DNA from: Candidatus Poribacteria bacterium
GTDB taxonomy: Bacteria; Poribacteria; WGA-4E; WGA-3G
NCBI GenBank assembly: GCA_964291315.2
Contig: OZ219753.1
Span: forward strand, 1,824,001-1,888,000
Length of the DNA: 64,000 nt
Direction of reading: 5' to 3'
The notes below the pieces were generated by a model. The model saw only the letters and a list, made by a program, of their open reading frames with translations. It was not told where the DNA came from and made no database searches. A program made the position numbers and the translations under genes. Shown here one piece after another: positions 14,428 to 16,530 of this stretch (position 1 is the first letter of the stretch; every line of letters begins with the position of its first letter).

Positions 14428-16530
14428 CTACTGACGGCCATCGCATGCCTCCAGCTTTTTAACCTGGGCATCGATGTGCCGAAACTGCCAAATCCAGCGT
14501 GTGTTATAAAGGAACTGCCGGAGATCGAAGCGGTTGTCGTCCGGCGAATACGACTCTGCATGGTAAGACGGCGTCAACGTCGTCATCTTGTGTCGGTTGA
14601 TCGAATAGTACCTGAAAAACCGTTTCACCTTTTCGGCGACCTGACGAGGCGGCAAGTGCTCCCACTCCCCTACTAACTTTTCGAACATGCTCACAGGACC
14701 ACACTGCTCCATTTTTCGGAGCTGCCCAAAACGACTCAACTCCGCATAAGTCATCCCCATGTCCACTTCGTCCGTTTGCGTATAGGTCTCAGTTACCGGT
14801 TCGAGCTCCGCTGTCGGCGGGGCATCAATAATTTCAGCCAGCGCCGGATAACCAAGCTCGCTTTTCGCCCAATTCAGAAAACACCGCAGATCGTGTTTAC
14901 TAATCCCACCAATCGGGTTAATGTCACCGCTACTGCAGTCATACTTTGTTAGATACCCACGCAACGCCTCATCAACGTTACCCGTGCCCAAAACGAGAAG
15001 CGCGCCTTGACGACTTCGCGTCCACGGCATCAGCTGAGCAAACAGATAACTAATCACCATCCGCAAACGCGCCTGTATATTCTGGAGTGCTTGGTTTTCC
15101 GTATACGTCCCCCCATCCACCTTGAAACGCGGACTCTTCCCAGTGAAACGTGTAAAGAGCGATTGCAAGGCCCGAACAAGCCCATCCATGTTAATATTGA
15201 GATGATACGCACCTATCTGATCAGCCAGCAATTTCGCCCGTTTCTGCGTTTCACGGGAACTATTCTCTGTACCAATATAACACGTATACAACAGACGATT
15301 GGCAAGCACAGACGGATCCGTGAAAATATCTGACGTTTCACCCTTTTCCAGCCAACGTTCAACATCCCGGAGAACCAGTGCCTCCTTCTCGCCAATCGCT
15401 TTAGCAACCAGTTGACACATAGAACCCACAAGCGTCGCAACCGCACCGCTGTCCGCCCCACCGGAGAGCGGTATGAAATACCCCGCTGCACCCGATCTAC
15501 GCAGATAGTCCCAAAGCCAACACGCCGGACCCAGGGCTATTTCCTCTTCCGGTTTGTGATAACGTGGAACAATAGCAGCACTCATCCTCCGTCTATCTTC
15601 CGAAACCGCAGCATCCAATTCAAAATCAACGTCAATCTGTGGAGGGGACACCGTTTTGCTCGCTTGCACAGCTCGACTCGCTTTCACACCGCGATAAGAG
15701 CGAACATCGTCAAGATTCACTGTCGCCGTGATGACCTCTACATCTTTGAGTGAAAACTGAGAACCCTGCGCCAAAATTTTGCCGTTTTGAGCGATCAACG
15801 CACACCCGTCAAAGTAGAGCCTACCTCCATCACACCCTTGTTGGTTGGCGTAGACGTAGACACCACCATTTTTCTCACTAGCATTCTGGATAAGCGCGAT
15901 ACGTGTATCCAACTTCCGCAATTCATGGTGAGACCCCGACCCGTTCGTGATAATCTCTACCCCAGCATTCCCAAACTGAATGTGCAGACTCATCGGCACA
16001 AAGAGCTCCTCACACGTCTCAGAGGCCAACACGGTATCGCCCACCGCAATCGACGCAATACCGATAGGCACATTCTGTTGTCCCGTCAACTCACGAATCT
16101 CACGCGGAAGTGTGTGCGATTCAAGCGTCCAACCGTGTTCCCATGCCGCAAACCAGCGAGGCTCCCGGTAGTTACCATCGCTCGCCAGCACCGTCTTCGG
16201 ACGAATTAACAACAACTTACCATCTAATACAAAAACTCGGCAATTATACCTGACATTTTTATGCATGACCGGCATGCCGATGTCACACAAGATGCCATCC
16301 GTATGATGACCTTTAAGGATATGTGCCAGTGCTTCCCAGCTGTGTCGCAGTGTGTCCAACTCCAAAAAATGGTCTTCACAAGAATAGCCGGTAATTTCCA
16401 GCTCCGGCCCCAACCGATACCGCGCACCGCGCGCTTTTGCAGTCTCAATCGATTCAACGATGCGCGCAGTGTTCCCTTCAAAATCGAGACTCCACTGATT
16501 CAGATTGCACGTTGCAAGAACCGCTTTCAT
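14428..16530 (-). CDS. nadE: Glutamine-dependent NAD+ synthetase, eukaryote (NADSYN1/Qns1)-type
   Basis: Nitrilase domain ([22 protein letters not shown], CEE) plus synthetase domain ([41 protein letters not shown]); ATG 16530 preferred. Confidence 0.92.
   Translation of the reverse strand: [700 protein letters not shown]

What the first reader, a model, noticed from the sequence alone, without database searches (positions are those of the whole stretch)
14428..16530. Eukaryote-type glutamine-dependent NAD+ synthetase in a bacterial operon
Seen: signatures [84 protein letters not shown] and [31 protein letters not shown]. From recall these match yeast Qns1 and animal/plant NADSYN1 far more closely than typical bacterial Gln-dependent NadE. 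The gene is intronless and co-oriented within a bacterial gene run, which argues against a simple contaminant. Inference: eukaryote-to-bacterium transfer (plausible in a host-associated lineage) or a bacterial sister clade of the eukaryotic enzyme.
Basis: partly seen in the sequence, partly recalled or inferred. Interest (0 to 1): 0.72.

Follow-up and report, generated by a model that had tools for sequence, protein, structure and literature searches.

The report
Eukaryote-type NAD synthetase in Poribacteria
This bacterium makes its NAD with the version of NAD synthetase otherwise typical of animals, fungi, plants and algae; the gene crossed between bacteria and eukaryotes long ago, and the direction of that transfer cannot yet be settled.

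Summary
Window 14428-16530 (minus strand) is an intact 700-aa gene for a two-domain glutamine-dependent NAD+ synthetase. It aligns end to end with human NADSYN1 (900 bits) and fails every NCBIfam full-length bacterial NadE model.

- **Organism and role:** the genome is a Candidatus Poribacteria assembly. This is its only nadE, working beside bacterial NadA, NadC and NadD.
- **Distribution:** all 94 other sampled genomes of the same order carry it. The 6 sampled genomes from elsewhere in the phylum keep conventional NadE.
- **Integration:** local gene order is shared with independent closed chromosomes, so it is not a chimera or contaminant.
- **Other carriers:** copies 64-70% identical occur in 33 of 167 genomes of one Chloroflexota order, in Caldilineaceae and in Trueperaceae. 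Together they form one bacterial clade (99/97 support). Candidatus Peribacteria carry a separate branch.
- **Placement:** the clade lies inside the NADSYN1 family, nearest red algae, oomycetes and a plant. AU tests do not reject eukaryote monophyly (p 0.11-0.13) or the bacterial clade as sister to all other members (p 0.55).

This is an ancient inter-domain replacement of a housekeeping enzyme. I lean towards eukaryote-to-bacterium transfer, but the direction is unresolved. I found no prior report.

The parts
14428..16530 (-). nadE: 700-aa NADSYN1/Qns1-type glutamine-dependent NAD+ synthetase (stop codon included)
   Evidence: ORF and translation. Pfam CN_hydrolase plus NAD_synthase. 900 bits, collinear with human NADSYN1 6ofb. 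The start at the 16530 ATG agrees with homologues.
15691..16518 (-). N-terminal glutaminase (nitrilase-superfamily, CN_hydrolase) domain, residues 5-280
   Evidence: Pfam PF00795, 127.3 bits. The catalytic Glu43, Lys112 and Cys173 are aligned with human Glu45, Lys114 and Cys175.
16402..16404 (-). codon of catalytic Glu43
   Evidence: Aligned to human Glu45 and invariant in all 53 rows.
16195..16197 (-). codon of catalytic Lys112
   Evidence: Aligned to human Lys114 and invariant in all 53 rows.
16012..16014 (-). codon of catalytic Cys173
   Evidence: Aligned to human Cys175 and invariant in all 53 rows.
14725..15519 (-). C-terminal NAD synthetase (PP-loop ATP pyrophosphatase) domain, Pfam envelope residues 338-602. 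The homology to human NADSYN1 continues to residue 697.
   Evidence: Pfam PF02540, 94.2 bits. Alignment to 6ofb.
15448..15465 (-). PP-loop motif SGGADS, residues 356-361
   Evidence: Read directly from the translation and located. That this motif binds ATP is established knowledge of N-type ATP pyrophosphatases, not something tested here.

Best explanation
The gene encodes a working glutamine-dependent NAD+ synthetase of the NADSYN1/Qns1 type. The N-terminal nitrilase-like domain hydrolyses glutamine. The ammonia passes to the C-terminal PP-loop domain, which adenylates nicotinic acid adenine dinucleotide (NaAD) and amidates it to NAD+. It is the only NadE in this Poribacteria genome and completes an otherwise bacterial de novo pathway (NadA, NadC, NadD). 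It is a xenolog: in the ancestor of one Poribacteria order it replaced the conventional bacterial NadE that other lineages of the phylum still have. The same gene lineage also passed between Poribacteria, some Chloroflexota and Trueperaceae. The most likely origin is one ancient transfer from an early eukaryote into a bacterium. Shown here: family membership, conserved catalytic residues, sole copy, fixation across the order, genuine integration, and one bacterial clade across three phyla. Inferred: enzyme activity, the replacement event, and above all the direction of transfer.
For: Family and function:
- The architecture is CN_hydrolase plus NAD_synthase.
- The alignment with human NADSYN1 is collinear and scores 900 bits.
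- The Glu-Lys-Cys triad is invariant. The two tunnel residues that PMC6946656 (passages read) calls eukaryote-specific, Tyr123 and His203, are Y and H in 17 of 17 Poribacteria/Chloroflexota/Trueperaceae rows. The PRK02628-type rows have F/Y and N/D; the short type has F and P.

Sole copy:
- The only strong PF02540 match in the genome is this gene. The other three matches are GuaA, MnmA and a 293-aa PP-loop protein.
- NadD (165.9 bits, above cut-off), NadA and NadC are present.

Replacement:
- 94 of 94 other genomes of the same order have a full-length copy at 65-89% identity.
- 6 of 6 sampled genomes from elsewhere in the phylum give only weak partial matches.
- Five of those six were fetched. 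Four carry PRK13981-type NadE (728-750 bits) and one carries single-domain PRK13980-type NadE (321 bits).

Integration:
- The order TolB-like / 447-aa ORF / nadE / Wzi-like / SLT is shared with independent assemblies, including closed chromosomes.
- GC3 is 0.545, against 0.516-0.576 for the neighbours on the same strand.

One bacterial clade:
- Support is 99*, 97/98 and 99/97.
- Bacterial distribution is narrow: 0 of 300 other Chloroflexota sampled across the phylum, 0 of 300 across the class, and 33 of 167 in one order.

Lean towards eukaryote-to-bacterium:
- In every free maximum-likelihood tree the bacterial clade sits away from the outgroup, grouped with red algae, oomycetes and Lupinus (97*, 99*, 97/94, 73/94).
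- In both bacterial phyla whose wider membership was sampled (Poribacteria, Chloroflexota), the carriers look like secondary recipients.
- Named sequences from red algae, a plant, oomycetes, a ciliate, animals and a fungus all fall in the family, so eukaryotes are a ready source.
- Peribacteria form a separate branch (100/100), which suggests more than one event.
Against: The direction is not resolved statistically.
- Holding the 23 labelled eukaryotes together costs only 18.8 lnL (p-AU 0.11) or 19.8 lnL (p 0.134).
- With the closer Cytophagales and Vibrio outgroups, the tree that joins the outgroup to the bacterial clade is 0.62 lnL better than the free careful tree (p 0.554). It was 16 lnL better than the quick tree.
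- The outgroup stems are saturated (2.3-4 changes per column on each side of the root). In the free trees they attach to long ingroup branches (Myxobolus, a ciliate, unlabelled long rows), which is what long-branch attraction produces.
- The bacterial clade joins at the base of the red alga/oomycete/plant group and not inside any named eukaryotic lineage. That position is also compatible with the eukaryotic root.
- Indels are uninformative.
- Many eukaryote-side rows carry no name, and eukaryote sampling lacks several supergroups.
- Activity and oligomeric state were not tested.
Confidence: 0.55

Rival explanations
1. The gene lineage is a relic bacterial sister or donor lineage. On this reading the NADSYN1-type enzyme arose in bacteria. 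The Poribacteria/Chloroflexota/Trueperaceae clade, and perhaps the Peribacteria, descend from the bacterial stock from which the ancestor of eukaryotes took its NAD synthetase. The function in the cell is the same.
For: The constrained tree with the bacterial clade next to the outgroup is as good as or slightly better than the free tree (+0.62 lnL, p-AU 0.554; +16 lnL over the quick tree). Eukaryote monophyly is not rejected (p 0.11 and 0.134). The clade attaches at the base of a major eukaryotic group and not inside one. Its stem is short (0.08-0.11) compared with its crown depth, so the split is about as deep as the eukaryotic radiation. De Ingeniis et al. 2012 (PMC3376133, passages read) derive the eukaryotic branch from a bacterial branch.
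Against: In the two bacterial phyla whose wider membership was sampled, the gene looks like a late acquisition. It is in one order of Poribacteria while the rest of the phylum has PRK13981- or PRK13980-type NadE. It is in 33 of 167 genomes of one Chloroflexota order but in 0 of 300 phylum-wide and 0 of 300 class-wide. Elsewhere only two Trueperaceae MAGs and three Peribacteria MAGs turned up. An unseen bacterial reservoir older than the last eukaryotic common ancestor would therefore be needed. No intermediate between this family and the next nearest bacterial types was found; those types are about 32% identical with very long stems. All free maximum-likelihood trees place the clade away from the root.
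Confidence: 0.3
2. A recent transfer from an animal (sponge) host into its symbiont, as happens with some eukaryote-like proteins of symbionts.
For: Poribacteria are known, from my recall and from record titles, mainly as sponge symbionts. The top-scoring 50%-identity representative, P0122 (58% identity), groups with an insect sequence (98/92). The AU test does not reject bacteria plus the three animal-group rows as one clade (dlnL 9.8, p 0.27).
Against: In every maximum-likelihood tree the animal and fungal sequences lie on the other side of the best-supported backbone branch (99*; 97/94). The gene is fixed in four families of the order, down to 65% identity, so it is old. MAGs whose titles point to open-ocean water carry it, and so do Promineifilaceae/Ardenticatenaceae and Candidatus Leptovillus, which I recall as activated-sludge bacteria. 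Composition is fully adapted to the genome. No named sponge sequence was available for a direct test.
Confidence: 0.07
3. Contaminating eukaryotic DNA or a chimeric assembly.
For: None beyond the eukaryote-like sequence itself.
Against: The gene sits in the middle of a large contig of a 4-contig, 4.4-Mb genome: the window begins at base 1,824,001 of contig C4, which extends beyond 2.8 Mb. It is flanked on both sides by bacterial genes in an order shared with independent assemblies, including single-contig chromosomes. It is present in 94 of 94 other genomes of the order. It has no introns, and its GC and GC3 match its neighbours. Read mapping was not done.
Confidence: 0.01

Closest known systems
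Human NADSYN1 (PDB 6ofb) and, by recall, yeast Qns1: eukaryotic glutamine-dependent NAD+ synthetase
   Same: Same length and two-domain order. The alignment covers residues 2-697 against 5-699 with only a few one- or two-residue gaps (900 bits). It shares the Glu-Lys-Cys triad, the PP-loop, and the Tyr123/His203 tunnel residues described as eukaryote-specific (PMC6946656 passages).
   Different: It is encoded in a bacterial chromosome without introns, next to bacterial envelope genes. It serves a bacterial NadA/NadC/NadD pathway. The octameric state and kinetics of the human enzyme were not tested here.
Red algal, oomycete and plant NADSYN1 (for example Chondrus crispus P0124, Globisporangium P0412, Lupinus P0087)
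   Same: These are its nearest named relatives in the maximum-likelihood trees. Searching with the Chondrus protein, Chloroflexota and Poribacteria proteins (57-59% identity) rank directly after red algae (55-78%) (trees).
   Different: The bacterial clade is not inside any of these groups. It lacks their lineage-specific insertions. The grouping does not survive AU testing of alternatives.
Cytophagales/Vibrio-type two-domain NadE (PDB 3ilv, named in PMC3376133 as Cytophaga hutchinsonii; plasmid-borne nadE of Hymenobacter, Spirosoma and Vibrio)
   Same: Same two-domain layout. These are full-length collinear matches covering 94-95% of the query and are the nearest conventional bacterial type found (229 bits to 3ilv; 29-32% identity).
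   Different: Only about 30% identical, and separated by a very long, fully supported branch (100/100).
PRK02628-type NadE (I recall PDB 3dla as the M. tuberculosis member) and PRK13981-type short NadE
   Same: Same reaction and domain families. The PRK13981 type is what the other Poribacteria lineages carry, and the PRK02628 type is what many Chloroflexota carry.
   Different: The window protein scores 139 and 127 bits against these models, whose cut-offs are 473 and 479. At the two tunnel positions these types have F/Y and N/D/P.

Membership tests
NADSYN1/Qns1-type (eukaryote-type) glutamine-dependent NAD+ synthetase | N-terminal nitrilase-like glutaminase fused to a C-terminal PP-loop NAD synthetase | tested here: met
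   PF00795 at residues 5-280 and PF02540 at residues 338-602.
NADSYN1/Qns1-type (eukaryote-type) glutamine-dependent NAD+ synthetase | Full-length, collinear, high-scoring similarity to a characterised eukaryotic member | tested here: met
   Human 6ofb scores 900.6 bits over residues 2-697 against 5-699.
NADSYN1/Qns1-type (eukaryote-type) glutamine-dependent NAD+ synthetase | Glutaminase catalytic triad Glu-Lys-Cys | tested here: met
   E43, K112 and C173 align to human E45, K114 and C175, and are invariant in 53 of 53 rows.
NADSYN1/Qns1-type (eukaryote-type) glutamine-dependent NAD+ synthetase | Tunnel-constriction residues reported as conserved in eukaryotes (Tyr123 and His203 in human) and different in prokaryotic enzymes | tested here: met
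   The window protein has Y121 and H201. These are Y and H in 17 of 17 rows of the bacterial clade and 5 of 5 Peribacteria-like rows. PRK02628-type rows have F3/Y2 and N3/D2; short-type rows have F3 and P3. The criterion comes from passages of PMC6946656.
NADSYN1/Qns1-type (eukaryote-type) glutamine-dependent NAD+ synthetase | Falls in the clade of eukaryotic enzymes, apart from other bacterial NadE types | tested here: met
   The branch separating the family from PRK02628-type, PRK13981-type and Cytophagales/Vibrio-type outgroups has support of 100.
NADSYN1/Qns1-type (eukaryote-type) glutamine-dependent NAD+ synthetase | Glutamine-dependent NAD synthetase activity and a homo-octameric assembly | not testable with these tools
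   No assay was possible, and no complex prediction was run.
Conventional bacterial NadE (NCBIfam equivalogs NF002730, NF010588, NF010587, NF001979) | Score above the curated full-length cut-off | tested here: not met
   Scores of 138.8, 126.6, 74.8 and 58.5 bits against cut-offs of 473, 479, 255 and 250. Only the domain model TIGR00552 passes (93.4 against 63.65).

The most novel reading that the evidence does not exclude
The Poribacteria/Chloroflexota/Trueperaceae enzymes, possibly together with those of Candidatus Peribacteria, are the closest surviving bacterial relatives of the enzyme that the ancestor of all eukaryotes acquired. They would then mark the bacterial source of eukaryotic NADSYN1, not a gene taken from eukaryotes.
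Probability: 0.3. Interest if true: 0.6.

Novelty: new member of a known kind. Interest (0 to 1): 0.42.

Why it matters
[quoted passage not shown] Here an entire bacterial order, which I recall as mostly sponge symbionts, runs on the eukaryote-type enzyme. The same gene lineage links Poribacteria, part of one Chloroflexota order and Trueperaceae, and a separate branch occurs in candidate-phyla-radiation Peribacteria.

Either direction of transfer would be informative. If eukaryote to bacterium, this is a rare ancient capture of a core eukaryotic metabolic enzyme that then spread between bacterial phyla. If bacterium to eukaryote, it names a candidate source for a gene of the last eukaryotic common ancestor.

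There is also a practical consequence. Bacterial NadE is pursued as an antibiotic target on the premise that it differs from the human enzyme (stated in PMC6946656 and PMC3376133). Bacteria carrying the human-like form are natural exceptions. They also offer intron-free genes from which to express NADSYN1-type enzymes.

Tried and rejected
- **Indel signatures** shared with particular eukaryotic groups: none was usable. The bacterial clade has the minimal form, and the single one-residue candidate lies in a poorly aligned stretch.
- **Rooting with three kinds of outgroup** (PRK13981-type from other Poribacteria, PRK02628-type from Chloroflexota, Cytophagales/Vibrio-type from plasmids): all have saturated stems and the root moves between trees.
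- **AU tests:** none rejected any hypothesis tried. Results were eukaryote monophyly p 0.11 and 0.134; bacteria plus animals p 0.27; Poribacteria monophyly p 0.47; bacteria next to the outgroup p 0.83 (quick tree) and 0.55 (careful tree).
- **Naming unlabelled representatives:** 30 look-ups named only 9. The Atlas call on P0123 gave no taxon. In the one scan seeded with P0123 (with P0125 and P0134 in its alignment), no GTDB prokaryote genome was more than 56% identical to P0123.
- **A second nadE in the genome:** rejected.
- **Contamination or chimera:** rejected.
- **Literature:** four full-text searches for a prior report returned 0 papers.
- **Earlier findings of this scan** were not open to the session.
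- **Not done:** read mapping across the junctions, structure prediction and complex prediction.
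Full report
**1. What is there**

Window 14428..16530 on the minus strand is an intact ORF. A longer reading from a GTG at 16611 is possible, but homologues begin at the ATG that gives [12 protein letters not shown]. Pfam finds a CN_hydrolase domain at residues 5-280 and a NAD_synthase domain at residues 338-602.

Against NCBIfam the protein passes only the domain model TIGR00552. It falls far below all full-length bacterial NadE equivalogs: 139 bits against a cut-off of 473, and 127 against 479.

Against solved structures, human NADSYN1 (6ofb) scores 900.6 bits. 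3ilv, which PMC3376133 names as Cytophaga hutchinsonii, scores 229 bits. 3dla, which I recall as M. tuberculosis, scores 76 bits. The human alignment is collinear from residue 2 to 697 with only a few one- or two-residue gaps.

**2. Catalytic equipment**

Glu43, Lys112 and Cys173 align with the human triad Glu45, Lys114 and Cys175 and are invariant in all 53 aligned rows. The PP-loop SGGADS is at residues 356-361.

Chuenchor et al. 2020 (PMC6946656, passages read) report that human Tyr123 and His203, at the first tunnel constriction, are conserved in eukaryotes. Prokaryotic enzymes have Phe and Pro at these positions. The window protein has Tyr121 and His201. So do 17 of 17 rows of its bacterial clade and 5 of 5 Peribacteria-like rows. 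PRK02628-type rows have F/Y and N/D, and short-type rows have F and P.

I infer an active glutamine-dependent NAD+ synthetase. Activity itself was not tested.

**3. Organism and genomic setting**

Close homologues carry the name Candidatus Poribacteria. The window is G000:C4:1824001-1888000 of a 4-contig, 4.4-Mb genome estimated at 95% complete.

The gene lies in a run of five minus-strand ORFs:

| Coordinates | Product |
|---|---|
| 17996-20791 | TolB-like protein |
| 16653-17996 | 447-aa ORF with no Pfam match |
| 14428-16530 | nadE |
| 12778-14376 | Wzi-like protein |
| 12085-12756 | SLT transglycosylase |

The order is conserved in all eight family-f1 loci examined; one of them lacks a TolB-like match. 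It is partly conserved in two family-f2 loci. Several of these loci come from single-contig chromosomes. The order is not conserved in families f3 and f4 or in other phyla.

GC (0.515) and GC3 (0.545) match the neighbouring genes. Contamination and chimerism are therefore excluded without read mapping, which I did not do.

**4. Is it the only NadE?**

Yes. PF02540 finds four places in the genome. This gene scores 95 bits. The other three are weak PP-loop matches in GMP synthase, MnmA and a 293-aa PP-loop protein.

NadD (165.9 bits against a cut-off of 112), NadA and NadC are present. The cell therefore makes NaAD by the bacterial route and depends on this enzyme for the last step.

**5. Distribution in the phylum**

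I searched 100 other genomes of the phylum.

- All 94 from the same order (families f1-f4) hold a full-length copy at 65-89% identity.
- In four of these (G057, G058, G071, G080) the match is split by an insertion near residues 305-317 within one open frame.
- Two show one internal stop (G061 TAG, G031 TGA).
- The 6 genomes from other orders and classes (f5-f8) give only weak partial matches, at most 43% identity.

I fetched five of those six. Four carry PRK13981-type NadE (728-750 bits) and one carries a single-domain PRK13980-type NadE (321 bits). The simplest reading is that the NADSYN1-type gene replaced the conventional one at the base of this order.

**6. Other bacteria**

Scans of one genome per prokaryotic species found the gene in several other groups:

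- many Chloroflexota, named Ardenticatenaceae, Promineifilaceae (including Candidatus Leptovillus), Caldilineaceae and Anaerolineae;
- two Trueperaceae MAGs;
- three Candidatus Peribacteria MAGs, which are 61-65% identical to the representative P0131.

The Chloroflexota and Trueperaceae copies are 64-70% identical to the window protein.

In one search, 200 stretches encoded a relative, and only the best 80 were listed.

Within Chloroflexota the gene is rare:

| Sample | Genomes with the gene |
|---|---|
| Phylum-wide even sample (includes unpublished genome G142, weak match only) | 0 of 300 other genomes |
| Class-wide sample | 0 of 300 |
| The order of G101 | 33 of 167 |

In four carrier genomes from Chloroflexota and Trueperaceae it is again the only strong PF02540 match. 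These MAG assignments rest on record titles, so mis-binning cannot be excluded for the three Peribacteria contigs.

**7. Phylogeny**

All trees used LG+C20+F+G4 by PMSF.

- **Tree 1** (quick search, 63 rows). Rows were the query, 12 Poribacteria, 7 Chloroflexota and 4 conventional NadE of other Poribacteria. They also included 39 of the 150 representatives, chosen for near-full-length matches.
- **Tree 2** (quick search, 75 rows). This used 21 named eukaryotes, 21 unnamed representatives and 8 outgroups. I left out the seven rows flagged as long in tree 1 (P0261, P0238, P0197, P0202, P0175, P0160, P0187) and eleven further representatives.
- **Tree 3** (quick search, 53 rows). This used named rows only, plus 5 Peribacteria-like rows and 8 outgroups.
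- **Tree 4** (careful search, 42 ingroup rows).
- **Tree 5** (quick, careful, 46 rows). This is tree 4 plus nadE of Hymenobacter, Spirosoma and two Vibrio plasmids, found at 29-32% identity over 94-95% of the query.

Three results are robust.

- The NADSYN1-type family is separated from every other bacterial type with support of 100.
- The Poribacteria, Chloroflexota and Trueperaceae sequences form one clade (99*, 99*, 97*, 97/98 and 99/97 across the five trees).
- The Peribacteria-like sequences form a separate clade (100/100).

One result is favoured but not robust. The bacterial clade groups with red algae, oomycetes, Lupinus and some unnamed sequences, away from animals, a fungus and a ciliate. 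Support for this is 97*, 99*, 97/94 and 73/94.

A reciprocal search agrees. With the Chondrus crispus protein as query, Chloroflexota and Poribacteria proteins (57-59% identity) follow directly after red algae (55-78%).

**8. Tests of alternatives**

| Hypothesis held together | lnL relative to the free tree | p-AU |
|---|---|---|
| 23 named eukaryotes (Peribacteria-like rows free) | 18.8 lower | 0.11 |
| 23 named eukaryotes against all bacteria | 19.8 lower | 0.134 |
| Bacterial clade plus three animal-group rows | 9.8 lower | 0.27 |
| Poribacteria monophyly | 1.5 lower | 0.47 |
| Outgroup plus bacterial clade, quick tree 5 | 16.1 higher | 0.83 |
| Outgroup plus bacterial clade, careful tree 5 | 0.62 higher | 0.554 |

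Several points follow.

- With the closer outgroups, the bacterial clade as sister to all other family members is as likely as the free tree.
- The outgroup stems are 2.3 to 4 changes per column on each side of the root. In free trees they join long ingroup branches: an unlabelled long row in tree 1, the Peribacteria-like pair in tree 2, Myxobolus in tree 3 and the ciliate in tree 5. This is the expected artefact of long-branch attraction.
- The data therefore do not decide whether the bacterial clade is nested in eukaryotes or is their sister. They also do not identify a donor group.
- The direction of transfer between Poribacteria and Chloroflexota is open as well.
- Some of the tested groups were named after I had seen the trees.

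**9. Weighing the direction**

Several observations favour eukaryote-to-bacterium transfer.

- Named members come from red algae, a plant, oomycetes, a ciliate, animals and a fungus.
- In both bacterial phyla whose wider membership was sampled, the gene looks secondarily acquired (sections 5 and 6).
- Two separate bacterial branches suggest repeated capture from a common source.
- All free maximum-likelihood trees place the clade away from the root.

Other observations favour a bacterial origin.

- The likelihoods of the two rootings are equal.
- The clade attaches at the base of a major eukaryotic group and not inside one.
- The stem is short relative to the crown depth.
- De Ingeniis et al. 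2012 (PMC3376133, passages read) concluded that the eukaryotic branch arose from a bacterial branch. I could not see their supplementary tree.

My estimates are 0.55 for eukaryote-to-bacterium, 0.30 for a bacterial sister or donor lineage, 0.07 for a recent host-to-symbiont transfer and 0.01 for an artefact. The remainder covers more complex histories.

**10. Novelty**

The enzyme family is well known, and NCBI already names these proteins NAD(+) synthase. The new points are that a whole Poribacteria order and scattered Chloroflexota, Trueperaceae and Peribacteria use the eukaryote-type enzyme as their only NadE. They form coherent bacterial clades at an unresolved, deep position in the family.

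Four full-text searches found no paper on this. One listed abstract (PMC7883664) reports archaeal-type coenzyme A pathway enzymes in Poribacteria, which is a precedent for cross-domain replacement in cofactor synthesis.

I file the finding as a new member of a known kind, with moderate interest that comes from the evolutionary question.

Noticed in passing
window 16653-17996 (-): This 447-aa ORF lies directly upstream of nadE and has no Pfam or NCBIfam match. It is 73-89% identical across Poribacteria loci, which is at least as conserved as nadE. The nearest Atlas clusters are bacterial, carry no Pfam family and are auto-named 'asparagine synthetase B'. Weaker leads point to BPL_N/GATase-like clusters.
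   Followed up: partly
L178:3935-6106, L179, L180 (Candidatus Peribacteria MAGs); P0131, P0159: This is a second, separate bacterial lineage with a NADSYN1-type NadE, in candidate-phyla-radiation MAGs. It is 53% identical to the window protein and forms its own 100/100 clade. The taxon assignment rests on MAG titles only.
   Followed up: partly
L157:1693-2430 (Trueperaceae); L178:1955-2818 and 2845-3801 (Peribacteria); L212 and L213 (Vibrio plasmids): Genes linked to NAD salvage sit next to nadE in other carriers. In Trueperaceae there is an isochorismatase-family gene, possibly a nicotinamidase. In Peribacteria there is a weaker isochorismatase match plus a PRPP-synthetase-like gene. On the Vibrio megaplasmids, pncB is annotated directly upstream of the Cytophagales-like nadE.
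   Followed up: no
G057, G058 (L093), G071, G080; also G061 and G031: In four genomes of the window's family (three of its genus, one of genus g5), the match splits near residues 305-317 within one open frame of 734-779 aa. This indicates an insertion in the linker between the two domains. Two other genomes show a single in-frame stop (TAG in G061, TGA in G031).
   Followed up: no
window 21201-21680 (+) and 21789-23162 (+): Two WD40 beta-propeller proteins lie here. By my recall, this is a repeat class often listed among the eukaryote-like proteins of sponge symbionts.
   Followed up: no
G000:C4, locus L002:1423-2304 (+): This 293-aa PP-loop ATPase gives only weak N-terminal matches to NAD_synthase, Asn_synthase and QueC (25-30 bits). 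Its family is unassigned.
   Followed up: no
window 1-2000: GC is 0.413 here, against 0.45-0.53 in the rest of the window.
   Followed up: no
P0174, P0177 (695 aa, metagenome contigs up to 35 kb): These unnamed NADSYN1-type sequences group with the ciliate Blepharisma (100*). I could not tell whether they are ciliate or bacterial.
   Followed up: no
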